Positions 1 to 59,007 of a stretch of 64,000 nucleotides of DNA are shown piece by piece. Within the stretch, counting starts at the first letter, position 1. Each line of letters opens with the position of its first letter. A model generated the notes under the pieces. It saw only the letters and a program-made list of their open reading frames with translations. It did not search any database and had not been told where the DNA came from. Both the position numbers and the translations under genes were made by a program. Origin of the DNA: a bacterium (GTDB lineage: Bacteria; SAR324; JACQKK01); NCBI GenBank assembly GCA_965205845.1, contig CBDBIG010000003.1, forward strand, positions 670,305 to 734,304. Reading direction: 5' to 3'.

Positions 1-250
1 TGTGAGGAGGGTCTGCATCCTTCAAGTTGTAGGCTTTAGAGAACCCGGTTTTGGCGGGACGCACCCATATTTAACAACTTATCCTGAGCTTGATTGTGAG
101 GAGGGTCTGCATCCTTTCAAGTTGTAGGCTTTAGAGAACCCGGTTTTGGCGGGACGCACCCATATTTAACAACTTATCCTGAGCTTGATTGTGAGGAGGG
201 TCTGCATTCCTCAAGTTGTAGGCTTTAGAGAACCCGGTTTTGGCGGGAGG
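1..250. repeat. Tandem direct repeat, ~94-bp unit x ~2.6 copies (tgtgaggagggtctgcatcc...atcctgagcttgat), at the 3' flank of the lpoA-like gene.
   Basis: Read directly: near-identical units begin at 1, 95 and 189; copy 3 diverges near 247. Confidence 0.85.
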
Positions 251-253
251 CAC

Positions 254-7014: not shown

Positions 7015-7150
7015 TAATCCTCGATATTGAGTTGTTCAATTAATGCGGCTGCCTTATCTATGGTACTAACTCCTTGTAAGACAGATGCTTGTTGCGCTCG
7101 ATTCCTCTACAAATTTTTAGTAGGTTTTAGGGAGGGGTGGGGGGGAGGCA

Positions 7151-7345
7151 CCTTTCTCCTTATCTGGCAAAGGCAGACGCCCAACCGCTCAAGCCTACCT
7201 TTCTCCTTATCTGGCAAAGGCAGATGCCCAACTGCTCAAACCTACCTTTCTCCTTATCTGGCAGAGGCAGACGCCCAACCGCTCAAGCCTACCTTTCTCC
7301 TTTCTGGTGAAAGCAGACGCCCAACCGCTCAAACCTACCTTTTCT
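7151..7345. repeat. 48-bp tandem repeat x4 (cctttctccttatctggcaaaggcagacgcccaaccgctcaagcctac), 3' of ppsA.
   Basis: Read directly. Copies are slightly diverged (gatgcc/gacgcc, aaacc/aagcc). Confidence 0.85.
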
Positions 7346-9713
7346 CCGCTTGCAGCAGTTCTTCGCGTGCTTTGCTCAAAAGGTCCGGACGCACAACAAT
7401 GCCTGCGCTGTCTTTGGTTTTAGGCCAGTTGCAAAAAAAGCTTAAATTGGCTGGCGAGATGTGAGATAGCAGCAAAGGCTTGCCAATTGCTTTGGCAGAT
7501 TCAAGCGCTTGTTCCAGCAACCACAGCACCGCGGGGTGTTTTTCGTCTAAAAGGGGCTTGGCGAGCACGTTAGAGGCATCGATCCCCATAGCCAATTGGG
7601 CCACATCGGCCACATGTACAATCAAACCGTCGCAGGCCGTGCCAAACGCGTTCACGGCGAGCATTTGCGCAGGGGTGCGACACAGTAAATGGATTTCTAC
7701 TTGAGAGGCATCGAAGCCATTTTGTTTGAGCAATGCCTTGAGGGCATCCATCTCTTTCAGGGTGTGCACGGCGGGCAGCACCAGCTGAATGTTGTCCATG
7801 CCAATCTCGCCATAAGCCTTGGCCAACGCTTGTACTTCTAAGGCAAAGGCTTCTTCGTAGTCAAAGTCCTCGTAGCGCGCAAGGGAGCGCGCACCCATAA
7901 AGGGGTTGGCTTCGTCGCGTGCATTTTCACGCCCACCAATCAATTGACTTAAAGTATTGGCAGGGGCATCGGGCAACAAGACCCGCACGGGCTTGGGATA
8001 TACGGCCGCCGCAATGTGGGCAATCGATTGAGAAAGCTTGTCGACAAAGGCTTTTTTCTTATCATCCCAACCCTTGGTGGCCTCTGCAAACGCTTTTGCA
8101 TCTTGGCTGGGTGCTTGGATGCAAGCCATGGGATGCACTTTAACCACATCGCGAATTATCTCATCCATGCGCAACAAACCCACACCATCGTTGGGATAAC
8201 GCGCATCTGCAAAAACCGCATCGGGATTGCTGGCCTGCATCCATACCTTCACCTGTGGGCGTTCAAGTTCTGCCAAGCGAATGACGGCTTTTTTATAGGG
8301 TAAAATGCCCTCATACACAACACCACGACTCCCCTGGGCGCACGAAACGGTGACCTCCTGACCATTTTGAATGGCCTTGGTGGCCCCTGTGGCACCCACA
8401 AGGCAAGGCAAACCCAATTCGCGCGAAATAATGGCCGCATGACTGGTACGCCCGCCCGTTTCGGTTACGATGGCAGAAGCAATTTTCATGATAGGGACCC
8501 AATCGGGGTCGGTGCTTTCTGTGACAAGCACCATCCCTTTTTGAAACTCTTTAATGCTCTCTGGCGTTAAAATCACCGAAGCCAAACCGCTGCCAATATT
8601 TTCTCCCACCGCCATCCCGTCGATGAGTACGCTCGACGTTTTTTCAAGGGTCATTTGTTCAATCACCCCTTGTTCACGGCGCGACACCACGGTTTCAGGG
8701 CGTGCTTGCACGATAAACAAATCTCCACTCTCTCCATCTTTGGCCCATTCCATGTCCATGGGTTTGAAGCCGCCCGCCTCTTGCGAGTAATGATCTTCAA
8801 TCAAGGTAGCCCAGTTGGCAAGTTGCACCACCTCGTCTTCACCCAGGCAAAAGCGATCGCTTTCTTCCCCAGGCACGGGGGTGTTCTCAATGCCCCCTCC
8901 ATCGGTTTTGTACACCATGCGTTGCTGTTTGGCGCCCAGCAAAGCGTGGATAATCGATTTTTTGCCTTGCTTTAAGGTGGGCTTGTGCACATACCATTCA
9001 TCGGGGTTAATCGCCCCTTGCACCACATTTTCTCCCAGCCCATAACCGCCAGTAATGTAAATGGCATCATGAAAACCGCTTTCGGTATCGATCGAAAACA
9101 TCACCCCAGCAGAAGATTTATCGCTGCGCACCATTTTTTGGACGGCGATCGAAAGCGCGACCGAGAAGTGGTCAAAGTGGCGTTCTTGGCGATAGGCAAT
9201 GGCTCTGTCGGTAAACAAAGAGGCAAAGCAAGCACGGCAGCTTTCCAGCAAATGCTCATAGCCGCTCACATTCAAGTAGGTATCTTGCTGACCCGCAAAC
9301 GATGCATCGGGCAGGTCTTCAGCCGTGGCCGAAGAACGCACCGCAACGTCAACCAAATCGACCTTGTAGCGTTCGCACAAAACGTTATAGGCATCCACAA
9401 TGGCCTTCACAATTTCATCAGGCATCATGGTGCTCGTTATCAGGTCGCGCACCTGCTTGCCACGGCTCGACAAATTGGTAAGGTCATTCACATCCAAATC
9501 CGAAAGAATTTGCCCAATGCGTGACCTCACCCCCATGCTTTCGACAAAGTGGTTGTATGCATAGGCAGAGACTGCAAAACCATCGGGCACGCGGACCCCT
9601 TTACCGGTTAAATTGGCAAACATTTCGCCCAGAGAAGCGTTTTTGCCCCCCACCATGGGAACATCTTGAATTCCTAGGTCAGAGAACCAATAGATAAATT
9701 TTTCTTCAGCCAC
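7335..9713 (-). CDS. ppsA: Phosphoenolpyruvate synthase (pyruvate, water dikinase).
   Basis: 792 aa with N-terminal MAEEKF..VGGKNASLGEM, a central phosphohistidine region (GGRTSHAAIISRELGLPCLVG) and a C-terminal PEP-utilising domain. Confidence 0.95.
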   Translation of the reverse strand: MAEEKFIYWFSDLGIQDVPMVGGKNASLGEMFANLTGKGVRVPDGFAVSAYAYNHFVESMGVRSRIGQILSDLDVNDLTNLSSRGKQVRDLITSTMMPDEIVKAIVDAYNVLCERYKVDLVDVAVRSSATAEDLPDASFAGQQDTYLNVSGYEHLLESCRACFASLFTDRAIAYRQERHFDHFSVALSIAVQKMVRSDKSSAGVMFSIDTESGFHDAIYITGGYGLGENVVQGAINPDEWYVHKPTLKQGKKSIIHALLGAKQQRMVYKTDGGGIENTPVPGEESDRFCLGEDEVVQLANWATLIEDHYSQEAGGFKPMDMEWAKDGESGDLFIVQARPETVVSRREQGVIEQMTLEKTSSVLIDGMAVGENIGSGLASVILTPESIKEFQKGMVLVTESTDPDWVPIMKIASAIVTETGGRTSHAAIISRELGLPCLVGATGATKAIQNGQEVTVSCAQGSRGVVYEGILPYKKAVIRLAELERPQVKVWMQASNPDAVFADARYPNDGVGLLRMDEIIRDVVKVHPMACIQAPSQDAKAFAEATKGWDDKKKAFVDKLSQSIAHIAAAVYPKPVRVLLPDAPANTLSQLIGGRENARDEANPFMGARSLARYEDFDYEEAFALEVQALAKAYGEIGMDNIQLVLPAVHTLKEMDALKALLKQNGFDASQVEIHLLCRTPAQMLAVNAFGTACDGLIVHVADVAQLAMGIDASNVLAKPLLDEKHPAVLWLLEQALESAKAIGKPLLLSHISPANLSFFCNWPKTKDSAGIVVRPDLLSKAREELLQAEKR

Positions 9714-16563: not shown

Positions 16564-16800
16564 TGCTGCCTTTCTGCAAGGGGTTGTTCAAGGCGATTGT
16601 CTTTGAGAATTTCGTTCACATCCAAAAAGGGGGGGTCGTGTGCTGCTGCCTTTCTGCAAGGGGTTGTTCAAGGCGATTGTCTTTGAGAATTTCGTTCGCA
16701 TCCAAAAAGGAGGGGTCGTGTGCTGCTGCCTTTCTGCAAGGGGTTGTTCAAGGCGATTGTCTTTGAGAATTTCGTTCGCATCCAAAAAGGAGGGACCTTT
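16561..16800. repeat. 80-bp tandem repeat x3, between the MaoC-like gene and the methyltransferase.
   Basis: The unit gctgcctttctgcaaggggttgttcaaggcgattgtctttgagaatttcgttc(a/g)catccaaaaag... recurs at 16563, 16643 and 16723. Confidence 0.85.
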
Positions 16801-39944: not shown

Positions 39945-40480
39945 TGCCCTTGTGCTCAAAACTGCGGGTCATCAGAGCGTACCATGTTAAGGCACCGCCA
40001 ACTTGTGCTCAAAGCCGCGGGTCATCAGAGCGTACCATGTTAAGGCACCGCCAACTTGTGCTCAAAACTGCGGGTCATCAGAGCGTACCATGTTAAGGCA
40101 CCGCCAACTTGTGCTCAAAACTGCGGGTCATCAGAGCGTACCATGTTAAGGCACCGCCAACTTGTGCTCAAAACTGCGGGTCATCAGAGCGTACCATGTT
40201 AAGGCACCGCCAACTTGTGCTCAAAACTGCGGGTCATCAGAGTGTACCATGTTAAGGCACCGCCAACTTGTGCTCAAAACTGCGGGTCATCAGAGCGTAC
40301 CATGTTAAGGCACCGCCAACTTGTGCTCAAAGCCGCGGGTCATCAGAGTGTACCATGTTAAGGCACCGCCAACTTGTGCTCAAAACTGCGGGTCATCAGA
40401 GTGTACCATGTTAAGGCACCGCCAACTTGTGCTCAAAACTGCGGGTCATCAGAGCGTACCATGTTAAGGCACCGCAAAAA
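39945..40480. repeat. 53-bp tandem repeat x ~10, immediately after the rodZ stop codon; the unit is derived from the rodZ 3' end.
   Basis: 'accatgttaagg' recurs at 39980, 40033, 40086 ... 40457 (period 53). The first unit overlaps the last rodZ codons (cgtaccatgttaaggcagctcgaaaactaa). Variants are aaaactgc/aaagccgc and agagcgt/agagtgt. Confidence 0.9.
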
Positions 40481-48509: not shown

Positions 48510-51500
48510 TTAGCTTAGGTTTTGCGATTTGTGTGTTTTGCTATGGCCAAGCACCCGTTGGCAGGCGAGCACAAAAGTGCCATTTTGCAATGCGTGGTGG
48601 CTTTGTGCATCCATGTAAAAATGGTCGCTAATTTCGCGGCCCACATTGGCCAAGGTAGCCTGGGGAACCTCCACTTGAAATGCATCAAACAACTGACTTA
48701 ATTGATAAAAAACAAAAGGCGCATCATGGAGCTGGATATGTATATAAGGCAGCCTTGTGGGTTTACGTTGATATCCTTCGGGGGTTTCTTGGACAGCGTA
48801 GCTTTTATCGTCTGCGGTATAAAAATGAATCCGAGGTTTTGCCCCAGTTGGCGCTGCACGATGAGAAGGAAACGCGTCGACACCTGGTGTACTCGAACCC
48901 TGATCGACGTCAGGGCTGGGAGACAATGTGGGTGGGGTAAGCAGCGGGGGCGGCACATTGCGAATGCTCCATTCCATGTCACGGTTCCACGATTGGGGCA
49001 AAGAATCGATCGCTGCGGTTTGAAAGGCATAACAATACCCTGTCGCACCCCCTTTAAACCGAACAGGATTAAACTTGCCATTTACAATGTTAATCGCATG
49101 CACGCTGCGGCGGCTGAGTGCATAGGCCACCCGCGTATGCGATTGTTTTAAATTGCGCGTAAAAATTAAAATTTCCGTAAGACCCGTGGCGCTATTGGGC
49201 ATCGAATCAACCAGGACATCATGGCTACGAAACCCCTCAAAACGCATGCTTTGCTTGGCCAATATGGCAGGTGGACAGCGCATAAGGTGGCGATTTGGAA
49301 ATGCATGAAAAAACCAATCTAACAATGCCCCTTCTTTTTGGCTTAACAACAACAAGGTGGGCTGGGGGAGCAAGGCTTGCATGCGCTCTGCAAAGCGTTT
49401 TTCCAAGTACTGGACTTTTTGGTCGTTTGAATCGCCCATGGTTACCTGCAATTGCAAAGCTTCTAGGTTGGCCACATGCCCTTGCAATTGCTGCCATACA
49501 TCGGGGGCGTGTTGGCGCAAAGGGGCATAAAGGGCAGGTCCCATCCCCTGTTCGATGCATTTTTGCACCATCAGCTGAAAGCGGGTTTCGTATTGTTGTT
49601 CATTTTTTTGCACATCCAAACGCTGGTTAATCAGCTCCAAGGCCTCGTTCTCATTGGGAAAACCACGCATCTCTTCGAGCATCATGCAGGTGCGGGCAAA
49701 ACGGTCGCGCAAGGCTTGCTGCTGCGGATAGTGTAAAGGGCCACACGCCCCCAAAGCGGCCAAGTTCATCATAAACAAAAGCAGCAGCGTTTCTAAGCGT
49801 TGTTCAACCAAGGCAAAGCAATGGGCAAGGGCTTCGTCGGTATAGCCCTTGTTGCCAAGCAATACCAAACTGCGGTGATGCAACACCAACAACGTGGCTT
49901 TTTCGCGCATTCCTTGCTGGGTAAACCCCATTTGTGCCATGCCGTGTTGCAAGCATTCGACCCCTGCTTGATGCTGCTTGGCCAGGTCTTCCATCGCTGC
50001 AATGCCACGCGTTCCTTCCAAGTTAGGATGGCTTTCAGGGGCCCCAAAATAGCAGCACACATGCAACAAGGCAGCGCATTTTAAGGCCAAAATATCCTCA
50101 TCACGCAACATCTCATGCCACTGGGGGTATTCTTCTGCCAGGGAATTGAGTTCAATTTGGATTTGGGCTAGGGCTAAAAAAGCGGTCTGATGCAAGGCTG
50201 TATGGCTTTGGTAAGGACCTTGTGGGTATTTGCGCGCAGAATCGATGACGGGCAAAAAGCAACCCAGCAAGCTGCTGGTATGCCAATCAAAAGGATTGGA
50301 GATGGCGCAGGTTTGCTCCAAAATATTCATGGCATGGGGTGCCAGCAAAATCTGCTGCCACCACGTATTTTCCTCGGCTGTAAGCGCAGGCAAAAGGGTT
50401 TTAGCGAGAGGCAGATGGGGAAGAATTTGGCACAAAGCATCTTGCAATGCTGGCGAGAAACACAAACCCGCTTGCGCTGCATGGGCTAGGGTTTCAAGCA
50501 AGGCCATGCGCGTTATGGTAGGTGGCACCAGCACCTTGGGTGTGGCTTTTATCCCTTGGAGTAAAGAGGCTTGCATGGCAGGGGTGGCAACGCCGTGTGT
50601 GGTGGTGGCCTCAATGGCCAAAATATGGCGTTGGGCGGGGTAAATATGGAGGGTTACATGGCTTAGCTGGGTGAGGGTGGTGGGTTCTAACGCGCGTTGA
50701 ATCAGGGTTTTGGCGGTATTGTGTGCCTGTTGCAATAGTTGATGCAACAAGCACCACCCTGCTCCAGGGTTGGTGGTGTGCGGGTGCTGTGTAAAGGGAG
50801 GCGGCATGGCCACGCGATTGCGCTTTGCTGCTGCCAAATCAAACAACTGCTGGGAACGTTTGCTACTTTCGTGCTGGGTAAAGTCCGTATGATGGGCACT
50901 ATTGGCGGCACGCATCACCCAGGCCAATTCAAGGGTACGCCCTAAATGTGCGCATTCCCATACCGAGAGCAACCCTTTTTTGTGGGCTGTTTGCAGCAAG
51001 CTGGCGGGGTGAAAATTGCCCTGGGAGGATCCCCAGGTGGCACCTGCCAACCACAGGGCGTTTTGAATGGCCCGCAAGCCCCCTTGCCCATTTTTTAAGC
51101 GCAAACCCCCTCCGCCACTGGGCTGCAGAGCAAGAGCGCTGAATTCTTGCATTTTTTTTTCAATGTACGCATTGCTGGGGAAAATATCCCAGACTTGTTG
51201 GCGTAATGCGCTCAAAATACCCACATCCCCCCCAAGGTTACGCCCTTCTAAAATGGAGGTTAAAGTGTGCAAGGTTTTAGGTTTGGTAAAGCGCGAAAGA
51301 TCCTCGCCCAGTTCAAAGTACTGGTGGGCAGGGTTAAGGCCTACCGCGCGCAAAATTTCTTGCATCCGCACCACCACCTCACGCAGCAGCAGCGTTTTTG
51401 CAGAGGAATACGCGCGATCGCTCCCCGTGGCACCATGCTCCGCCATGCCATCTTCTTCGAGAACGATACAAGAACCGAGATCAAGGTCGGAATCAAAGCA

Positions 51501-52292
51501 CAGTTCGCCGCGTCCATAGCCTCCACGGGCAAACATGCATAGCTGTGCATGAGCCCAGTGTGGTGTGGGTTCCCAATCATTGAGAGCTGCCACGGTATTT
51601 TCAAGGGCGTGTCGTCGTGCTGCCTCTTGTTTGGCTGCGTTGTTTTTGCGGGCACTTTGCGGTGTTTTTAGGGGCATCGCTTGGCGATTGATGTTGCTGC
51701 GTAAGCGGGCTATGGATACCTCGCGTGAACGGTTGAGGCTCGAGTGACTGCGTATTTTTTTTTGGCGCACGGTCGCCAACCCTTGCTGAGCTTGGGCAAG
51801 CATCACAAAACGCATGGCCTCAAGTTCATTTAGGGCCTGGGTATGTACAAATTGAAGCAGCCCGTCCAATGCCAAGGCCATATCATGAATGGGCGCCATG
51901 GCAATGGGGTGGCTTCGCAGAAAATTTTGGCGTAACGAGGCTTGAATTTTCTTCCAAGCAGCACCGCCTTCACGGGTTAGCAAAGTGGTTCGCGCCTCGA
52001 GCCATTGACACCAGTCGCTTTCGCTGTGGCAGGCCTTTGGCAAGGCTGCTAACTGCTCATCCAAGGTTTGCAGCAATTTTTGGGTGAACGAGACAACGGG
52101 AGTGCTGGCTGTCGCTTGATAACGTAAACCTTGCAGCAGTTCTGTGAGTGCTTGTTGGGGTTCCATAGAGAGCCATGGGAGTTGGGATGGAGGGGCATTT
52201 TTAAGAAGCAACACTCTAGCATAAAGTGTACTGTGTTTAAGCATGCTTGGCATTTGCGCCCGTTGTACCCGTGCCCAAACAGGTGCTGACAT
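48510..52292 (-). CDS. glnD: GlnD-like [protein-PII] uridylyltransferase family protein (nucleotidyltransferase, HD and C-terminal ACT-like domains), unusually long at 1260 aa.
   Basis: NTase motif FARGGYGRGELCFDSDLDLG, HD-like region (LKCAALLHVCCY), C-terminal ACT-like (HIQLHDAPFVFYQLSQLF). A ~250-aa N-terminal extension has no recognised motif. Confidence 0.6.
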   Translation of the reverse strand: MSAPVWARVQRAQMPSMLKHSTLYARVLLLKNAPPSQLPWLSMEPQQALTELLQGLRYQATASTPVVSFTQKLLQTLDEQLAALPKACHSESDWCQWLEARTTLLTREGGAAWKKIQASLRQNFLRSHPIAMAPIHDMALALDGLLQFVHTQALNELEAMRFVMLAQAQQGLATVRQKKIRSHSSLNRSREVSIARLRSNINRQAMPLKTPQSARKNNAAKQEAARRHALENTVAALNDWEPTPHWAHAQLCMFARGGYGRGELCFDSDLDLGSCIVLEEDGMAEHGATGSDRAYSSAKTLLLREVVVRMQEILRAVGLNPAHQYFELGEDLSRFTKPKTLHTLTSILEGRNLGGDVGILSALRQQVWDIFPSNAYIEKKMQEFSALALQPSGGGGLRLKNGQGGLRAIQNALWLAGATWGSSQGNFHPASLLQTAHKKGLLSVWECAHLGRTLELAWVMRAANSAHHTDFTQHESSKRSQQLFDLAAAKRNRVAMPPPFTQHPHTTNPGAGWCLLHQLLQQAHNTAKTLIQRALEPTTLTQLSHVTLHIYPAQRHILAIEATTTHGVATPAMQASLLQGIKATPKVLVPPTITRMALLETLAHAAQAGLCFSPALQDALCQILPHLPLAKTLLPALTAEENTWWQQILLAPHAMNILEQTCAISNPFDWHTSSLLGCFLPVIDSARKYPQGPYQSHTALHQTAFLALAQIQIELNSLAEEYPQWHEMLRDEDILALKCAALLHVCCYFGAPESHPNLEGTRGIAAMEDLAKQHQAGVECLQHGMAQMGFTQQGMREKATLLVLHHRSLVLLGNKGYTDEALAHCFALVEQRLETLLLLFMMNLAALGACGPLHYPQQQALRDRFARTCMMLEEMRGFPNENEALELINQRLDVQKNEQQYETRFQLMVQKCIEQGMGPALYAPLRQHAPDVWQQLQGHVANLEALQLQVTMGDSNDQKVQYLEKRFAERMQALLPQPTLLLLSQKEGALLDWFFHAFPNRHLMRCPPAILAKQSMRFEGFRSHDVLVDSMPNSATGLTEILIFTRNLKQSHTRVAYALSRRSVHAINIVNGKFNPVRFKGGATGYCYAFQTAAIDSLPQSWNRDMEWSIRNVPPPLLTPPTLSPSPDVDQGSSTPGVDAFPSHRAAPTGAKPRIHFYTADDKSYAVQETPEGYQRKPTRLPYIHIQLHDAPFVFYQLSQLFDAFQVEVPQATLANVGREISDHFYMDAQSHHALQNGTFVLACQRVLGHSKTHKSQNLS

Positions 52293-52756
52293 GCTCTAAG
52301 CATCAACCATAGGGTAATCTACGCTTCTTTATGCTAAAATCATGCTACGGCGGCGTTTTAGCAAGGCCGGAATATCCCAAAAAATGCAGTTTTTGTTGGC
52401 TACGTAAAACCACATTTGTGTTACCCTAGATCCTATTAAGGTGTGCTGTGTACGCGGGATTTGATATCGACCCACTTTCTGCCCGTACTAATGTGGACGC
52501 ACCTTGTTTTGCAACCCTCCCAATTGCAACCCTCCCAATTGCATGGCGTGCCAAGGGAATTGGGGATACGACCCTGGCCAAGGCAGCAGGTTGTTGAGGG
52601 TGCTAGGGATTGTGCTTGGGTTGGCGGGGGATGCCTAAATTTTGAACCATTTTTGTGGACTGCCATCCTTTCCGCACCATGGCACGACATAAAAAACAAC
52701 GGGGTTTTGCTATTTTTACACCATTGTCGCTTGTCACTACCCCCCATGCCCTTAGC

Positions 52757-52917
52757 CCTTAGATTGACCTTTTTAGAATAAATGCCTTTACAAAGTACTT
52801 GGCTATGCATAAATACCAAAGCCTTTGTGAGCCTTTTAAAAAAAGCATGAGCAAGCCCTTTGACCCCCGTTAAAAAAACCATCACTCCCCCTCAAATTGT
52901 TAAAAACTCAGAGAAAA
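52757..52917. repeat. Left copy of a ~160-bp direct repeat (rnr leader / 5' coding sequence) bracketing the MTase cassette.
   Basis: ctaccccccatgcccttagcccttagattgacctttttagaataaatgcctttacaaagtacttggctatgcataaataccaaagcctttgtgagcc... is ~93% identical to 54719-54900. Confidence 0.9.
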
Positions 52918-53840
52918 AATGGATTAACAAAATCCATACTGGTGATGCGCAAAAAATATTAAGGGACATGCCATCAGATTTTATTGATCTAAGTTTTTGG
53001 TCCCCGCCATATTTTGTAGGTAAGGAGTATGAGAAGTACCTATCTTTTGATGATTGGAAGAGACTGCTTGAAGGGGTTGTTTGTGGGCATGCCCGTGTTA
53101 TGAGGGACGGTGCTTTTATGGTGATAAACATCAACGATATTTTATGCTTTCCTGATCCGAGCATGCCTAGGTATATGTCTAACAATATTGGTAATAAGAG
53201 GGTACCCGTCACCAGGCAAGATGCATTAGATGCCAAACGTAAAAACCCTGATGCAAACCGTTATGAACTAGCAAAAATTCTTGGGTGTAGCGAACAAACT
53301 GTACAGCGCAGACTTGAGCATAACAATATACGTGGTGGGAAGCAGGCTACCGCCACAAAAGTTTTGTCAGTAGCTGGAATGCTACAAGCGTGGAGTGAAG
53401 CAGCGGGGCTCTATCTGTATGACCGCCGCATTTGGCATAAAGACCCATGCTGGGCAAATAGCCGATGGCATAGCAATTCATATAGATCGATTGATGAGTT
53501 TGAATATCTTTTCATATTCTGGAAACCAGGCATTGTTGACATTGACCGGTCTCGCCTTAAAAAAAACGAATGGGCTGAATGGGGGTCACGGGGGGTTTGG
53601 AATATAAAATCAATTCGCCACAATAACCGCCATGAGAGTGAATTTCCTGAAATGCTGGCGGAACGAGTTATACGCCTTTTGTCTAATCCTGAAGGTGTTG
53701 TGCTAGACCCGTTTGTTGGTTCCGGCACCACAACTGCCGTTGCCCGCCGCCTCAAACGCAGATATGTTGGCATAGACAGGCTTGATAAATATGCCGTAAT
53801 TGCCAGGGATAGAACGAATGCAATCGATAAAACGGATTGA
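52860..53840 (+). CDS. Beta-class DNA methyltransferase (SPPY...DPFVGSGTT) with an inserted HTH-like segment, in a lower-GC cassette.
   Basis: IDLSFWSPPYFVGKEYEK (motif IV region resembling the 6.5-kb pseudogene) ... EFPEMLAERVIRLL...VVLDPFVGSGTTTAVARRLKRRYVGID. The ORF opens at TTG inside the duplicated rnr leader; the first codons (TPVKKTITPPQIVKNSE) mirror the RNase R N-terminus. Confidence 0.85.
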   Translation: MTPVKKTITPPQIVKNSEKKWINKIHTGDAQKILRDMPSDFIDLSFWSPPYFVGKEYEKYLSFDDWKRLLEGVVCGHARVMRDGAFMVININDILCFPDPSMPRYMSNNIGNKRVPVTRQDALDAKRKNPDANRYELAKILGCSEQTVQRRLEHNNIRGGKQATATKVLSVAGMLQAWSEAAGLYLYDRRIWHKDPCWANSRWHSNSYRSIDEFEYLFIFWKPGIVDIDRSRLKKNEWAEWGSRGVWNIKSIRHNNRHESEFPEMLAERVIRLLSNPEGVVLDPFVGSGTTTAVARRLKRRYVGIDRLDKYAVIARDRTNAIDKTD

Positions 53841-54459
53841 GGATGCCGAGAGATCTTGCATCAGATTAGTGTCTCGCGCCCTACGAGATTATAGGGATAA
53901 GGCGGTTGAAATCTTCAGAGAAGAATCCGATAAACCTGGTAATATAGCAGAAGATGTAACAAGGGAAGCTATGGATGCTCTTGGTACGTCACGGGTTCCG
54001 ATACGGCTGTATGGTAAAGTTGATGATAAACGTGCCGCGATAGTCTTTTTGTCGGATAGAGAAGTTGAAGTCGCCATGATGGTTGACCCCAAAGCTGAGA
54101 AGGATGGAAATACCGCGACCATTCAAATGTCTCAGACATCAATGCAAATTAGGCAATATAGGCAGGGGGAGGAAATTTGTGTTAATGGTACGCTACCGCC
54201 GTTTATTGAAAGAGAAGGCAAAAAACTTCAAACCATAACCATAATTGTAAAATATATTTACACCGAAATAACGACGCAGAAGTTTATCTTGGAAAAGATT
54301 AAAGTCGCCTGCATACCTAACGGTCTACTTCAGGAAAGTTACAACCCCAATGCACAAGATGGTTTTTGGAGGGTAGGCCGTAATGCACCTTCATTGGGGG
54401 AGGATTTTCGGGTGCGCCTCTCATTTAGTGATCTTCAAAAAAAGCAGAATGGCGAGTAG
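53818..54459 (+). CDS. Unknown protein translationally coupled to the MTase; candidate cognate restriction endonuclease or other partner (unclassified).
   Basis: ATG at 53818 overlaps the MTase stop (53840) by 23 bp; 214 aa, lower GC, no recognised family. A possible PD-(D/E)xK-like stretch (VDDK...SDREVEVAMMVDPK) is speculative. Confidence 0.45.
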   Translation: MQSIKRIEDAERSCIRLVSRALRDYRDKAVEIFREESDKPGNIAEDVTREAMDALGTSRVPIRLYGKVDDKRAAIVFLSDREVEVAMMVDPKAEKDGNTATIQMSQTSMQIRQYRQGEEICVNGTLPPFIEREGKKLQTITIIVKYIYTEITTQKFILEKIKVACIPNGLLQESYNPNAQDGFWRVGRNAPSLGEDFRVRLSFSDLQKKQNGE

Positions 54460-54718
54460 TTGAGGTTTAAACAACTTCCAAATGGCAAATTTGAGGGGGA
54501 TATCAGACCATAAGCAAGAACAACTCACCTCAAAACCAATGATAGAGGCAAAACCTCACAGGTATTAACCGTTAAAAGCAAAACGTCGGGCAGGCGTGCG
54601 CATGCAAGCCTGCGCCCGAAAATTTGGCAACATGAATCTTGGATTAGGTCGCGGTGAGAAAAATTAGCGGCGCTTAATAACACAGAAAAAAATGTGACTT
54701 TGGTATATAATTCCCTCT

Positions 54719-54900
54719 TAACTACCCCCCATGCCCTTAGCCCTTAGATTGACCTTTTTAGAATAAATGCCTTTACAAAGTACTTGGCTATGCATAAATA
54801 CCAAAGCCTTTGTGAGCCTTTTAAAAACAGCATGAGCAGCCCTTTGACCCCCGTTAAAAAAACCGTCCCCCCCCTCGAAATTGTCAAAAATTCAGAGAAT
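54719..54900. repeat. Right copy of the ~160-bp direct repeat (authentic rnr leader and start).
   Basis: See the left copy. The right copy has intact atgagcagccctttgacccccgttaaaaaaacc (MSSPLTPVKK); the left copy has a 1-bp insertion (agcaagccc) that breaks that frame. Confidence 0.9.
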
Positions 54901-56973
54901 AACACATCTGCCCAAGAACAAACATGGGAGGGCCCTTTGTTTGTGCACCCTGGCGGCTTTGGTTTTTTGGAATGCGAGGAACGCCAGGAATCCTTGTTTA
55001 TTCCCGCACGTTTTATGAAGGGAGCCCTCGATGGCGACTGGGTGTTGGCGGGGCTCCTTCCGCCCGAAGCTAGGCGCGAGCGTGAGGCTGGGCAAGTGCT
55101 TGAAGTGCTGCGCCGCCGTTGCACCCGATTGGCTGCCCGCTTAGAGTGGGATCAAGGCGAATTATGGGCCCTGCCTTTTAATGCCAAACTCCCCGATGTA
55201 TGGGTAGAACCCGCCAGCATGCCCAAGGCCAAAGATGGCGATGTGGTCGAGGTGGAAATTCACTATTATCCGCAAGATTCGAAAGAGTCCCCCGAAGGGC
55301 GAGTAGCCAAAGCATTACCAAACAAGGACAACCCTTATGCATGGGCGCAGCGGGTTACCCTCGATCTTAATCCACCACTAGAATTTCCTAAAACGTGCTT
55401 GAAAGAGGCCTCCCAAGCCAGCGAGGGCATCACCTATAAAGGGCGTGAAGATTTATGCCATTTGCCTTTTGTTACCATTGATGGCGAGGATGCACGCGAT
55501 TTTGACGATGCCATTGCTTGGATAGCCAACAAAGAAGGCAGCCACGCAGGCGGCGTGTTGTATGTGGCCATTGCTGATGTGGCAGAATTGGTGGCACCCC
55601 GAAGTGCTATGGATGAGGAGGCCTGTACACGCGGATTTAGTTATTATTATCCGACCCACATGGTGCCCATGTTACCCGAGCGTCTGTGCACCGATTTATG
55701 CAGCCTACGCCCCCAGGTAGCACGCCACACCCTTACTTGCGAAATGCATTTGGATGCCCTGGGCAACACCCTGCAAAGCCGCGTGTTTGAAAGCGTGATT
55801 GAAAGCCGTGCAAGGCTAACCTATGCCCAAGTGATGCAATTATTTGAGACACAGCGCGCCAGCGGCCCCATTACCCAAGAAATCGCCAAGATGCTGTTCC
55901 GCTTGCGCCCTATGGCAAAAATCATGGAGCACATGCGTCAAAACCGTGGTGGGCTTCGCTTTACTTTTCCTGAAAGGCGCTTTGAAATCAACGACCAAGG
56001 GATGCCCGTCAACATTCACTTGGCATGGCCCAGCGAGAGCACCAAACTCATTGAACAGTGCATGCTTCAGGCGAACGAGGCGGTGGCAGAATACGCAGCC
56101 CAGCAAAAACTCCCGTTTTTACGTCGTGTACACGAAGCCCCTGCGGCCGATGCCTTGGCCACCTTGCAAGAAAATTTGGGCGCTTTTGGGATTCCTATCT
56201 CCCCCAAAGGGCTCGCCACCCCCGGGGTTTTGGGGCAGGTGCTTAAAGCCATTGCAAAGCACGATGCCCAAGAACGCCTCGAAATCATGGTGCTGCGCGC
56301 GTTGAAGCAAGCGCGCTATGCCGCGACATCTTTAGGGCATTTTGCCTTGGGCGCCCAGCATTACGCACATTTTACCTCGCCCATTCGACGCTACCCCGAC
56401 CTGTTGCTTCACCGCGTGCTTAAAGCCCATTTGCGCAAAGCCCCCAAAATCCCCCAGCTCCCTTCCCATGCGGGTTCGTTACTTTCCCAAGCGGAACGCG
56501 TGGCCGATGAAGCGAGTGGGCGCGTGAACAAGCTGTTTCAGGTGTTGTATATGGAAGGCTACCTTGGTAAAAGTTTTATGGCGACTGTGGCCAATATTTC
56601 CGACCAAGGGGCATGGCTGCGCTTACAAGACCCACCCGTTGAAGGCTTGCTCCCCTTGGTGCTTTTTCCCAAACAAACGCGCTACCAACAAGATGGCAAG
56701 TGTATTCTTGTGCCCAAGCAGCCAGCCATCGAAATTGGAACCTTGCTCGAATGCCAGCTGGTGCATGCCGAGCGCCAAAGCTATAGCCTTGAATTTTTGT
56801 ACGTTAAGCAGGTACCGTCCGCCGATCCCCCCAAAAAGCGAGCACTAAAACCGCCCAGCCCCGTGCTAAAAAAAAGAGCAAAAAGAGCCATCCCCAAAAG
56901 AATGCAGGCCTATAAGGGGAAGGGCACCCCCCATCCATCCCTAGCCTTATTTCGTTCTGGGGATACGCCATAA
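54832..56973 (+). CDS. rnr: Ribonuclease R (RNB-family 3'-5' exoribonuclease).
   Basis: N-terminal OB region (HPGGFGFLE), RNB catalytic domain (HFALGAQHYAHFTSPIRRYPDLLLHR), C-terminal S1 and basic tail. The ORF opens at 54784; the likely start is MSSPL at 54832. Confidence 0.9.
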   Translation: MSSPLTPVKKTVPPLEIVKNSENNTSAQEQTWEGPLFVHPGGFGFLECEERQESLFIPARFMKGALDGDWVLAGLLPPEARREREAGQVLEVLRRRCTRLAARLEWDQGELWALPFNAKLPDVWVEPASMPKAKDGDVVEVEIHYYPQDSKESPEGRVAKALPNKDNPYAWAQRVTLDLNPPLEFPKTCLKEASQASEGITYKGREDLCHLPFVTIDGEDARDFDDAIAWIANKEGSHAGGVLYVAIADVAELVAPRSAMDEEACTRGFSYYYPTHMVPMLPERLCTDLCSLRPQVARHTLTCEMHLDALGNTLQSRVFESVIESRARLTYAQVMQLFETQRASGPITQEIAKMLFRLRPMAKIMEHMRQNRGGLRFTFPERRFEINDQGMPVNIHLAWPSESTKLIEQCMLQANEAVAEYAAQQKLPFLRRVHEAPAADALATLQENLGAFGIPISPKGLATPGVLGQVLKAIAKHDAQERLEIMVLRALKQARYAATSLGHFALGAQHYAHFTSPIRRYPDLLLHRVLKAHLRKAPKIPQLPSHAGSLLSQAERVADEASGRVNKLFQVLYMEGYLGKSFMATVANISDQGAWLRLQDPPVEGLLPLVLFPKQTRYQQDGKCILVPKQPAIEIGTLLECQLVHAERQSYSLEFLYVKQVPSADPPKKRALKPPSPVLKKRAKRAIPKRMQAYKGKGTPHPSLALFRSGDTP

Positions 56974-57082
56974 GCGGTTCTTTTCAGCCTTGCCCGCAAA
57001 GGCTGGCCCAGCCACCACAACCATGGCAGTAGATCCTATTTAGAACGCAAACAAGAAGGCAATCTGCCACCAACCACTAGGG

Positions 57083-59007
57083 TTGTGCCCATTCACATGC
57101 TTTGCCACCACTAAGGACAATGGCGCAAAAAAGCGGGTGTGCCCATTCACATGGTTTTACACTGGTCAAAATTTAATGGTTGTGCCCATTCACATGCTTT
57201 GCCACGGGTCAAAATTTAATGGTTTTTTGTGGTTTTTCAACGGTTTACGGGCAGTGTGTTTACGCTAAAAAGGTGGTGGCACGTGTCCCGCCCAAAAAAC
57301 GGTGGTATGCGGGTTTGCGCGTTTTTCGTTCACATGGCGTAAGACTTTTTCGAGGGCCCTGTAGAGGGAATTCTAAAGGGTTGGAAAATGTTCGAAAGGG
57401 ATTTACAATGCCGCGTCCCGTGGCGATCACCGCAAAGTCTTCTGCGGGGCTCATGTCGGCAGGGCAGGTGGTTTTTACGCTTAAGGGCTTTTTTTGCTGC
57501 CAGCCCGCCAACGCGCATCGGGCCTTCGCCAATGGCTAACCATTGGATAGAAATATTGGCTTTTTGTGCAATAAGCACACATTTTTCGATGCCGGGTTTA
57601 ATAGCGCCGCTCACATACTGCCCTATTAAGTTCCCATCAATACCTACTTTTGGGACAGCGCACGCTTGGCTACAGGCGTTTGCAACAGGCCGCTACTCTG
57701 CATCGCTGGCACATACCCAGCCTCCCCACCTTAAAGCGCCGTGTTTTGGCCGAGCTCCCCCACCTGAGTGCGCACCCTTGCCCGCCGCGGCGCAACACCT
57801 CTTAATGCCACATTTCCCTCGCAAAAGCGTTTGCTTAAAAGACCTTTTCGCCTTGGCCCTCGTTTGTGGCGATGGCCACCGCTTTGATGTTTTTACCCAA
57901 TGGCCAAAGGTCAAAAAGCCCTGCAGTCCATGCTCAAAGGCCATTGCAAGATATTTACGAGGGGCAAATTCCTCAGTTGGCGCCTCGGGCGGAGCGAGAA
58001 CAGCGACCTGGTGCGCGTTGCCTTTTCAAGCATTTTGCGCGACTTTGGCGTGCCTTTAGGCATGCTGCGCGATAACAGCCCGCGCTCGGGCGGAGCAAAG
58101 CCACACGCCCCCCAGCGCTTTCGCTTTAAAATCAAAGCAAGAAGACCCCCTATGGTTTGCTCACGGCTTTGGGCTGCACCATCCACTGGGCACAGCCTTA
58201 TCACGGCCAGGCAAAATCGATTGAGCGCGCCTTTTTAGACCTGTGCGAAAGCATCGCCAAACATCCCGCCTGCCCAGGCGCATACACGGGCAACAGCCCC
58301 ACGCAACAATTCCCTCATCAAGCCCGGGAATTACACGCAAAAAGCGATTCCCATTGCCACCTTTCGCGCTCTGGTCGAGCAGCAAATAGGTTACCACAAT
58401 GCCCATCCAAGGGCGCACCGGGGGGCTTATGTAACGGGCGTTCTTTTGATGCGGTGTTTGCACAAAGTTACGCAGCCAGCCCCATCACCCAGGCCACCGC
58501 CCAGCCAGCAGCGTAGTTTTTTACGCGCCAGCCGAGCAAATCAAGGCCCACAAATACGATGCCAGGGTGCGCATCTTGAGTGCAAACCTTGGTCAAGACG
58601 TGCTCAACCGCTACGATGCAAAAAACACCCCCTTCTACCTCGACTTAGCCCTACCACGGGCACGAAAAGCGACTACGGCAAGGTTTTTTTGTTGAGCGAA
58701 GACTTTGAAAGTCTCGCAACGGTTAAAGGGCAAGGCAAGTTTCTACTGAGCATCACTAACAAAGGGGGCAAGCGATTGATGGTAAAATCGATAGGTAAAA
58801 AAGGTGCCATCTGAAATTAAACGGCGAAACCGACGGTGGCAAACCATGGGAAAGAAGATGCAAAACCATGTGAACGTTTACACTAAGCATTCATTGCCAT
58901 AAAGGGATTGAATTTTATACGCAACAAAACATGCCAATATAAATAGGCTCCAGAATGACCAGTGGCAAAGCATGTGAAAGGTGACAAGGGGTAAACCATG
59001 GGAATGG
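57083..59007. mobile_element. Decayed DDE transposon remnant (~1.9 kb) with inverted termini and three subterminal 15-bp repeats at each end. The interior carries frameshifted rve-type integrase fragments.
   Basis: Left end: gtgcccattcacatg at 57085, ~57136 and ~57183. Right end inverted: gtggcaaagcatgtgaa (58963-58979) is the exact reverse complement of ttcacatgctttgccac (57093-57109), with further catgtgaa / catgggaa copies at ~58857 and ~58996. Interior frames carry DNSPRSGG (cf. DNGxEF) and AQPYHGQAKSIERAF (cf. PY.PQ.KG.IER) in different frames. Confidence 0.6.

What the first reader, a model, noticed from the sequence alone, without database searches (positions are those of the whole stretch)
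53818..54459. Uncharacterised 214-aa protein coupled to the MTase: candidate novel nuclease or effector
The ORF has no recognisable Walker, HNH, GIY-YIG or clear PD-(D/E)xK motif by eye, and only a speculative D...E.E..K stretch (VDDKRAAIVFLSDREVEVAMMVDPK). Tight coupling to a DNA MTase (23-bp overlap) usually means the partner's activity must be neutralised by the methylation.
Basis: inference. Interest (0 to 1): 0.6.

Follow-up and report, generated by a model that had tools for sequence, protein, structure and literature searches.

The report
SfiI-family restriction enzyme, not novel
The "uncharacterised" 213-residue protein is an ordinary DNA-cutting restriction enzyme of the well-known SfiI/BglI family, paired with its protective methylase in a small imported two-gene cassette, and this copy has a one-base frameshift that removes its conserved tail.

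Summary
The ORF at 53818-54459 is real: ATG start, 213 aa, 23-bp overlap with the upstream methyltransferase gene. It is not a novel nuclease. It matches Pfam PF11487 (Type II restriction enzyme SfiI) at E=1.3e-44. A profile of its family hits the SfiI crystal-structure sequence at E=9e-37. Its AlphaFold model superposes on SfiI (TM 0.88) and BglI (TM 0.71).

More than 500 homologues of 214-235 aa exist, some already named "SfiI family" or "BglI family" restriction endonuclease. In all four other gene contexts examined the gene follows and overlaps the same beta-class SPPY methyltransferase.

Two extras:
- An A7 run at 54437-54443 (A8 in the closest homologue) shifts the frame. The conserved C-terminal AEWRVVEV becomes QNGE, so this copy may be attenuated or dead, or the base may be an assembly error.
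- The low-GC cassette is flanked by a 191/192-nt direct duplication of the rnr 5' end. This fuses rnr-derived codons to the methylase, which is the signature of "insertion with long target duplication".

Verdict: new member of a known kind; low interest.

The parts
52727..52918 (+). Direct repeat copy 1. It is a duplicate of the rnr 5' region: leader, candidate start codons ATG 52805 and ATG 52847, and about 20 N-terminal codons. A 1-nt extra A near 52852 puts both ATGs out of frame with the MTase. The resulting 22-codon uORF stops at TAA 52871-52873.
   Evidence: the repeat finder D1/D2; alignment A1; gapped alignment with 180 of 193 columns identical; translations. The 40-nt core occurs only twice in the window, against 0 expected.
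52860..53840 (+). Beta-class amino-DNA methyltransferase (M gene), 326 aa counted from TTG 52860. Motif IV is SPPY near the N-terminus and motif I (FVGSGTT) is near the C-terminus, so it is probably an N4-cytosine MTase. The first ~20 codons derive from the rnr duplicate. Family homology begins at W21 (52920).
   Evidence: Pfam PF01555 E=1.6e-37; PADLOC MTase_II PDLC03260 E=6.6e-123 over residues 20-320; comparison with the L001 MTase N-terminus; the database gene call is 290 aa, starting at M37.
53818..54459 (+). SfiI/BglI-family PD-DxK Type II restriction endonuclease (R gene) as encoded, 213 aa. Active site: E45, D69, D90, K92. Predicted base contacts: R188, R198, R200.
   Evidence: Pfam PF11487 E=1.3e-44; PDB SfiI 2ezv E=2e-17 for the single sequence and 9e-37 for the family profile; AF2 pLDDT 89; Foldseek SfiI TM 0.88 and BglI TM 0.71; alignment A2.
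54437..54443 (+). A7 homopolymer, the site of an apparent -1 frameshift. The closest homologue has A8 here.
54444..54470 (+). Out-of-frame remnant of the ancestral R 3' end. In the +1 frame it reads AEWRVVEV followed by TAA, which is the W-R tail conserved in the family and in SfiI (W232-R233).
   Evidence: Repaired translation. Nucleotide homology to L001 runs through the frameshift to 54471. The tail is conserved in homologues and aligned to SfiI 228-239. In the P0002 model the tail is a strand with pLDDT 98.
54471..54711 (+). Unique 3' flank of the inserted unit. It contains a GC-rich hairpin at about 54586-54619 (-23 kcal/mol), which may be an operon terminator, but the fold is not statistically distinctive.
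   Evidence: No homology to L001 beyond 54471; fold z = -1.7; the terminator scan found nothing on the + strand.
54712..54902 (+). Direct repeat copy 2, the functional 5' end of rnr. ATG 54790 and ATG 54832 are in frame with RNase R.
54790..56973 (+). rnr (RNase R), the target gene whose 5' end was duplicated. It remains intact downstream of the cassette.
   Evidence: Pfam RNB E=1.6e-94, OB_RNB, CSD2; database gene call of 727 aa.

Best explanation
The ORF is the restriction-endonuclease (R) gene of a compact two-gene Type II restriction-modification cassette. The upstream gene encodes a beta-class SPPY methyltransferase, most likely N4-cytosine-specific. The R gene is translationally coupled to it through a 23-bp overlap.

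The R protein is a PD-DxK nuclease of the SfiI/BglI family. By homology (inferred), two subunits straddle an interrupted GC-rich palindrome, probably with a GCC-N5-GGC-like core. E45, D69 and D90 would bind Mg2+, and K92 would complete the active site. Each strand would be cut to leave 3-nt 3' overhangs on DNA that the partner MTase has not methylated.

The cassette (GC 43.6% against 50.6% for the window) was acquired horizontally. It sits in the 5' end of rnr, flanked by a 191/192-nt target duplication that fuses rnr-derived N-terminal codons to the MTase.

In this particular sequence a one-base-shorter A run (A7 rather than A8) replaces the conserved C-terminal strand AEWRVVEV with QNGE. The allele as written is therefore probably attenuated or inactive, meaning the R-M system has begun to decay. 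The alternative is that the missing base is an assembly error and the enzyme is intact.
For: Family membership (shown):
- Pfam PF11487 at 153 bits, E=1.3e-44.
- PADLOC REase_II.
- phmmer to SfiI 2ezv at E=2e-17.
- Family profile to SfiI at E=9e-37 over SfiI residues 11-239.
- AF2 model with pLDDT 89 and pTM 0.87.
- Foldseek top hits SfiI (TMq 0.88, E=2.8e-16) and BglI (TMq 0.71, E=1.5e-9).

Active site (shown by alignment): SfiI E55/D79/D100/K102 (PMC548270; PMC3458533) align with E45/D69/D90/K92. These are invariant or at least 90% conserved in 61 homologues.

Base contacts: SfiI R218 and R220 align with invariant R198 and R200. SfiI K208 aligns with R188.

R-M pairing:
- The MTase is PF01555 and PADLOC MTase_II at E=6.6e-123.
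- The same M-then-R arrangement, with an 11-20 bp overlap, occurs in L001, L003, L005/L006 and L007/L008, each with unrelated flanking genes.
- M.BglI makes m4C (PMC4882945). Beta-group MTases carry DPPY or SPPY at motif IV (PMC2890505).

Horizontal acquisition: there is a GC dip across the cassette and a flanking 191/192-nt repeat that is 93% identical. The pattern fits 'insertion with long target duplication' (PMC2853133).

Frameshift:
- The window has A7 where L001 has A8.
- The repaired reading gives AEWRVVEV followed by a stop.
- DNA homology continues to the repaired stop.
- W-R is at least 90% conserved in the family and present in SfiI.
- The tail is a confident strand in the P0002 model and has low confidence in the window model.
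- 47 other homopolymers of at least 7 nt lie inside uninterrupted long ORFs in the window, so indel errors are not common in this assembly.
Against: - No biochemical data exist for any member of this short (~215-235 aa) clade. Specificity, cleavage geometry and oligomeric state are all inferred.
- SfiI R109, predicted to contact the outer G, corresponds to T99 here, and S210 corresponds to A190. The recognition site need not be SfiI's.
- Neither GGCCN5GGCC (5 observed, 3.0 expected) nor GCCN5GGC (44 observed, 38.5 expected) is avoided in the window. This gives no help on specificity.
- Whether the frameshift is real cannot be decided from one assembly.
- Whether loss of 8 C-terminal residues abolishes activity has not been tested.
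- The MTase start codon is uncertain. It could be TTG 52860, or the gene could be a frameshift-interrupted fusion to the rnr ATG, so expression of M is not assured either.
- No related genome with an empty site was available to prove the insertion model.
Confidence: 0.93

Rival explanations
1. The R gene is intact and fully active in the organism. The A7 run, and the extra A near 52852 upstream of the MTase, are assembly or sequencing errors. The locus would then be a functional defence and addiction module expressed from the duplicated rnr 5' region.
For: The shift lies in a homopolymer, the commonest site of sequencing indels. Everything else in the ORF is intact, with all catalytic and DNA-contact residues conserved. 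A frameshift 4 codons before the stop would not be noticed by assemblers or gene callers.
Against: 47 other homopolymer runs of at least 7 nt, 16 of them at least 8 nt, lie inside uninterrupted long ORFs in the same window, so the error rate per run is low. The second indel (AA versus A at ~52852) is not in a long homopolymer. A neighbouring Mu-type transposase is also genuinely broken, so decay of mobile genes does occur in this genome.
Confidence: 0.3
2. The protein is a novel, non-restriction effector or a new nuclease family that merely sits next to an MTase.
For: NCBIfam has no model that hits it. No member of the short clade has been characterised experimentally, as far as the searches here show.
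Against: There are strong sequence, profile and fold matches to SfiI and BglI. The PD-DxK active site is conserved. Database names are 'SfiI family' or 'BglI family' restriction endonuclease. Linkage to the MTase is invariant in the 4 other gene contexts examined.
Confidence: 0.02
3. The flanking 191-nt repeats are not a target duplication made at insertion. They could instead be a later tandem duplication or gene-conversion product, or the ends of an unrecognised mobile element that happens to carry the rnr-like leader.
For: No empty site is available. The four other loci with the same cassette lack flanking repeats. Divergence is concentrated in the last ~70 nt of the repeat, with 65 of 73 columns identical against 115 of 120 in the 5' part.
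Against: The repeat contains every candidate start codon and the N-terminal codons that are in frame with RNase R's first OB/cold-shock domain, so it is rnr sequence. Only two copies exist in 64 kb. The unit between the repeats is exactly M+R plus 240 bp, and no transposase or integrase lies between them. The structure meets the three structural criteria of PMC2853133.
Confidence: 0.2

Closest known systems
R.SfiI (Streptomyces fimbriatus; PDB 2EZV/2F03; Pfam PF11487), Type IIF, GGCCNNNN^NGGCC
   Same: It has the same fold (TM 0.88), with 26-28% identity over essentially the whole protein. The catalytic residues E/D/D/K are the same. The two arginines that read guanines (R218, R220) are the same. 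The C-terminal W-R motif is shared by the family. The enzyme is paired with a methyltransferase.
   Different: It is about 50 residues shorter (213-217 aa against 269 aa): SfiI's last ~30 residues and several loop insertions are absent. The polar residues of the SfiI tetramer interface, Q30 and Y68 (PMC2082129), are D24 and S58 here. SfiI R109, predicted to contact the outer G, is T99. K208 is R188 and S210 is A190. A tetrameric, two-site mechanism and GGCC specificity therefore cannot be assumed.
R.BglI (PDB 1DMU; Pfam PF14562), dimeric Type IIP, GCCNNNN^NGGC; M.BglI makes m4C
   Same: It belongs to the same beta-class (EcoRV-like) PD-DxK lineage, with fold TM 0.71 and a weak Pfam hit at E=3e-4. 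The K/R and R-x-R DNA-reading elements are shared. Several homologues are annotated 'BglI family'. The partner MTase is a beta-class amino-MTase with an SPPY motif, which fits m4C as made by M.BglI.
   Different: Identity is only 15% in the structural alignment. BglI is 299 aa with a much larger dimer interface (PMC2082129). The Pfam BglI score (20.4 bits) is below its gathering threshold of 25.
R.MwoI (GCNNNNN^NNGC), a remote BglI/SfiI relative
   Same: It has the same D-Xn-D-X-K motif variant and the same predicted DNA-binding mode (PMC3458533).
   Different: MwoI carries a ~80-aa central insertion and a different spacer length.
R-M gene insertion with long target duplication (Nobusato/Furuta/Kobayashi; PMC2853133)
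   Same: An R+M unit of less than 20 kb has no transposase or integrase and is flanked by direct repeats longer than 30 bp made of host sequence. That paper also reports an M-gene fusion created at the junction.
   Different: The duplication here (191 nt) covers the start of an essential-type housekeeping gene (rnr) and supplies the MTase's N-terminus. No empty-site genome is available to confirm the event.

Membership tests
SfiI family Type II restriction endonuclease (Pfam PF11487) | Sequence match above the curated family threshold | tested here: met
   153.2 bits against a gathering score of 25, E=1.3e-44. The family profile matches the SfiI chain at E=9e-37.
SfiI family Type II restriction endonuclease (Pfam PF11487) | SfiI/BglI-type PD-DxK fold | tested here: met
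   AF2 pLDDT 89. Foldseek to 2ezv gives TMq 0.88 at E=2.8e-16, and to 1dmu gives TMq 0.71.
SfiI family Type II restriction endonuclease (Pfam PF11487) | Catalytic residues equivalent to SfiI E55, D79, D100, K102 | tested here: met
   E45, D69, D90 and K92 align with them and are invariant or at least 90% conserved in 61 homologues.
SfiI family Type II restriction endonuclease (Pfam PF11487) | Base-reading residues equivalent to SfiI K208, R218, R220 | tested here: met
   R188 (a Lys-to-Arg change), R198 and R200.
SfiI family Type II restriction endonuclease (Pfam PF11487) | Conserved C-terminal W-R strand (SfiI W232-R233) | tested here: not met
   As encoded, the ORF ends QNGE. The motif (AEWRVVEV) lies out of frame at 54444-54467 because of the A7 run. 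The gene is therefore a family member, but the allele is truncated or altered.
SfiI-like specificity and mechanism (Type IIF tetramer, GGCCN5GGCC) | Residue contacting the outer G (SfiI R109) and the polar tetramer-interface residues (Q30, Y68) | tested here: not met
   The equivalents are T99, D24 and S58. R109 rests on a homology model whose contacts a later paper says were confirmed by the crystal structure.
SfiI-like specificity and mechanism (Type IIF tetramer, GGCCN5GGCC) | Concerted cleavage of two GGCCNNNN^NGGCC sites | not testable with these tools
   This needs biochemistry. Site counts in the window are uninformative.
Type II restriction-modification system | Adjacent cognate DNA methyltransferase, conserved as a pair | tested here: met
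   A PF01555 MTase overlaps R by 23 bp. The same pair is found in L001, L003, L005/6 and L007/8. PADLOC scores them as MTase_II and REase_II.
Type II restriction-modification system | Methylation protects against cleavage; R is toxic without M | not testable with these tools
   An experiment is required.
R-M insertion with long target duplication (PMC2853133 criteria) | Both R and M lie in the insert, the insert is under 20 kb, the flanking direct repeat exceeds 30 bp, and no mobility gene lies inside | tested here: met
   The repeat copies are 1985 bp apart start to start, and 1793 bp of unique DNA (52919-54711) lies between them. The repeats are 191/192 nt, with 180 of 193 columns identical. 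Only M and R ORFs lie inside.
R-M insertion with long target duplication (PMC2853133 criteria) | A single copy of the repeat at an empty site in a related genome | not testable with these tools
   No close relative was found. The best RNase R homologue is 43% identical, the genome scan found only a 28%-identity hit, and the metagenome exact scan returned 0.

The most novel reading that the evidence does not exclude
The short (~215-235 aa) clade to which this protein belongs appears to have no characterised member. It may be a minimal, dimeric Type IIP version of the SfiI/BglI scaffold with a recognition sequence different from both. Supporting this, the equivalent of SfiI's outer-G contact residue R109 is a threonine, K208 and S210 are changed, and the polar residues of the SfiI tetramer interface are absent. 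The window copy would then be a snapshot of such a cassette that inserted into the rnr 5' end, borrowed rnr's expression signals and N-terminal codons for its MTase, and is now losing its nuclease through a slip in a poly-A tract.
Probability: 0.25. Interest if true: 0.35.

Novelty: new member of a known kind. Interest (0 to 1): 0.15.

Why it matters
The practical value is limited. The finding removes a "novel effector" candidate from the list and annotates the pair as a Type II R-M system. Members of this short SfiI-like clade could yield a restriction enzyme with a new interrupted-palindrome specificity, which is useful as a reagent but not conceptually new. The locus is also a clean textbook-style example of two known aspects of the R-M life cycle. 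[quoted passage not shown] The other is apparent early decay of the R gene at a homopolymer.

Tried and rejected
1. NCBIfam scan of the R protein gave no hit. It is uninformative, and Pfam and PADLOC settle the family.
2. Look-up of the exact window protein in the contig index found nothing on record, so the source record could not be named.
3. Empty-site search:
   - The search for related loci with RNase R in GTDB genomes gave only a 28%-identity hit.
   - An exact 40-nt repeat pattern in metagenome contigs gave 0 hits.
   - A protein search with RNase R gave a nearest relative at 43% identity.
   - The host lineage has no sequenced close relative in these collections, so the insertion model could not be confirmed by comparison.
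4. Specificity from site avoidance: GGCCN5GGCC occurs 5 times against 3.0 expected, and GCCN5GGC 44 times against 38.5 expected. There is no depletion. 64 kb and a probably recent acquisition make this test powerless.
5. The sigma-70 promoter and terminator scan of 52300-55000 found nothing convincing in the repeat or after R. The hairpin at ~54586-54619 is not distinctive, with z = -1.7. No promoter or terminator claim is made.
6. A search for flanking repeats around the homologous cassettes in L001, L003, L005 and L007 found none. The duplication is specific to this locus.
7. tblastn of R against PLSDB plasmids gave no match.
8. A regulator or non-nuclease reading of the ORF was rejected on the family, fold and active-site evidence.
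9. The alternative start TTG 53800 (219 aa) was rejected. Homologues begin at the position of ATG 53818, and an SD-like AGGGA precedes that ATG.

Full report
**Observation.**
- The ORF exists as described.
- The upstream ORF 52860-53840 ends at TGA 53838-53840. This gives the stated 23-bp overlap.
- An AGGGA element lies 8 nt before the ATG.

**What the protein is.**
- Pfam places it in PF11487, "Type II restriction enzyme SfiI", at 153 bits (cut-off 25), E=1.3e-44. There is a sub-threshold second hit to the BglI family.
- PADLOC calls it REase_II.
- Against PDB sequences, the single protein finds only SfiI (2ezv) at E=2e-17. A profile of 61 homologues finds SfiI at E=9e-37 over SfiI residues 11-239.
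- An AlphaFold2 model built on the 61-sequence alignment is confident (pLDDT 89, pTM 0.87).
- The best Foldseek matches in the PDB are SfiI (TMq 0.88, E=2.8e-16) and BglI (TMq 0.71, E=1.5e-9). All later matches have E above 0.001, and the next-ranked ones are other EcoRV-class restriction enzymes.
- The database search returned 527 homologues. Those listed are mostly 214-235 aa. Some are already named "SfiI family" or "BglI family type II restriction endonuclease".

**Active site and DNA contacts.**
- The SfiI active site is E55, D79, D100, K102 (PMC548270; PMC3458533). In the alignments these correspond to E45, D69, D90 and K92 of the window protein. All four are invariant or at least 90% conserved in the family.
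- SfiI R218 and R220, and BglI R277 and R279, read guanines of the shared GCC/GGC core. They correspond to invariant R198 and R200. SfiI K208 corresponds to R188.
- SfiI R109, predicted to read the extra outer G, is T99 here. S210 is A190. The polar residues of the SfiI tetramer interface, Q30 and Y68 (PMC2082129), are D24 and S58.
- I therefore infer a BglI/SfiI-like mechanism: a dimeric unit on an interrupted GC-rich palindrome, Mg2+-dependent cleavage, and 3-nt 3' overhangs. I do not assign SfiI's exact site or its tetrameric two-site behaviour.
- Counts of GGCCN5GGCC (5 against 3.0 expected) and GCCN5GGC (44 against 38.5 expected) in the window show no avoidance and do not help.

**The partner and the module.**
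- The upstream gene is a PF01555 N6/N4 DNA methylase at E=1.6e-37 and PADLOC MTase_II at E=6.6e-123.
- It has SPPY (motif IV) near the N-terminus and FVGSGTT (motif I) near the C-terminus. This is the beta-group order, in which motif IV is DPPY or SPPY (PMC2890505). From established motif knowledge, SPPY suggests N4-cytosine methylation. M.BglI makes exactly this modification (G4mCCN5GGC; PMC4882945).
- In four other gene contexts (loci L001, L003, L005/L006, L007/L008) the same MTase family immediately precedes the SfiI-family gene and overlaps it by 11-20 bp. The surrounding genes are unrelated in each case.
- The pair therefore behaves as a self-contained, horizontally moving Type II R-M cassette. 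The claim of novelty is not.

**A frameshift at the 3' end.**
- Homologues end ...L-x-K-K-A-x-W-R-V-x-x. The W-R is at least 90% conserved and aligns with SfiI W232-R233.
- The window protein instead ends LQKKQNGE.
- The DNA shows why. The run at 54437-54443 is A7, whereas the closest homologue (P0002, 73-75% identical) has A8 at the same place.
- Adding one A gives LQKKAEWRVVEV followed by TAA at 54468-54470.
- Nucleotide homology with that homologue continues through the shift and stops at 54471.
- In the model of P0002 the tail is a beta-strand at pLDDT 98. In the window model the last residues fall to pLDDT about 55.
- In the same window, 47 other homopolymers of at least 7 nt lie inside uninterrupted long ORFs. 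On that basis I judge a genuine mutation (about 0.6-0.7) more likely than an assembly error, but this cannot be settled without reads.
- If the mutation is real, the nuclease is probably attenuated or inactive. This would be the usual first step in R-M decay.

**How the cassette got there.**
- The cassette is flanked by a direct repeat at 52727-52918 and 54712-54902. The copies are 192 and 191 nt, with 180 of 193 aligned columns identical, and the first ~120 nt are nearly perfect.
- The 40-nt core of the repeat occurs only at these two places in 64 kb.
- Copy 2 is the true 5' end of rnr (RNase R: RNB, OB_RNB and CSD2 domains). It includes the candidate start codons ATG 54790 and ATG 54832, and the codons up to about residue 24-38.
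- Copy 1 supplies the first ~20 codons of the MTase ORF (TPVKKTITPPQIVKNSEKK).
- Homology to other MTases of the family begins only at W21, exactly at the end of the repeat.
- The DNA between the repeats (52919-54711) has 43.6% GC against 50.6% for the window. It contains only M, R and 240 bp of unique flank.
- This is the structure described as "insertion with long target duplication" of R-M genes, for which M-gene fusions at the junction are also reported (PMC2853133).
- An empty site could not be examined. The host lineage has no close relative in the collections, and its nearest RNase R is 43% identical.
- In copy 1 an extra A near 52852 puts both rnr ATGs out of frame with the MTase. This creates a 22-codon uORF that ends at TAA 52871-52873.
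- The MTase must therefore start at TTG 52860, or it is itself compromised. The public gene call starts only at M37 and gives 290 aa.

**Verdict.**
- The finding is a correctly spotted but ordinary gene: the R subunit of a Type II R-M system of the SfiI/BglI family. It is a new member of a known kind.
- The most interesting residue of the analysis is local natural history: the target-duplication insertion into rnr, the borrowed N-terminus, and the homopolymer frameshift.
- It also remains open that the uncharacterised short clade has its own specificity and a simpler dimeric mechanism.

Noticed in passing
window 52727-52918 and 54712-54902: A 191/192-nt direct repeat (93% identical) brackets the M+R cassette. 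It is a duplicate of the rnr 5' end, and it donates the first ~20 codons of the MTase ORF. This looks like an R-M 'insertion with long target duplication' that created a gene fusion.
   Followed up: yes
window 52805-52873: In repeat copy 1 an extra A (about 52852, GAGCAAGCC versus GAGC-AGCC in copy 2) frameshifts the rnr-derived ATGs relative to the MTase. This leaves a 22-codon uORF whose stop (TAA 52871-52873) overlaps the only in-frame start, TTG 52860. The true MTase start, and whether M is expressed at all, is unclear.
   Followed up: partly
window ~53211-53340 (MTase residues ~118-160): The MTase carries a helix-turn-helix-like segment (ELAKILGCSEQTVQRRLEHN) between the catalytic and AdoMet-binding halves, where the target-recognition domain sits in beta-class enzymes. 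It gives weak sub-threshold hits to several HTH Pfam families. Some homologues also carry HTH-family Pfam hits. It may serve as the TRD or as an autoregulatory element.
   Followed up: no
window 57081-58987: Directly downstream of rnr lies a ~1.9-kb decayed transposon remnant. Fragments of a Mu-type DDE transposase (PF02914) are split over two frames (57900-58238 and 58157-58516). They are bracketed by three direct ~43-nt repeats on the left (57081-57220) and inverted copies on the right (58835-58987), which resemble multiple transposase-binding end repeats.
   Followed up: partly
window 1-258, 1297-1628, 7150-7347, 16564-16794, 39949-40475: There are several long-period, near-perfect tandem repeat arrays: periods of 95, 84, 47, 80 and 53 nt. 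The 84-nt array has 4.0 copies at 100% identity, and the 53-nt array has 9.9 copies. At least the 84-nt array lies inside a long ORF (254-2752, minus strand). Their nature is unknown.
   Followed up: no
window 48510-52292 (- strand): A 1260-aa ORF lies divergently upstream of the cassette. Its only family hit is a weak, sub-threshold GlnD PII-uridylyltransferase match (E=0.002), so this is a large and poorly characterised protein.
   Followed up: no
window 54832-56973 and the whole window: The host lineage appears phylogenetically isolated. The best database homologue of its RNase R is only 43% identical, and neither a protein-seeded scan of GTDB representative genomes nor an exact-match DNA scan of JGI metagenome contigs found a close relative.
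   Followed up: partly
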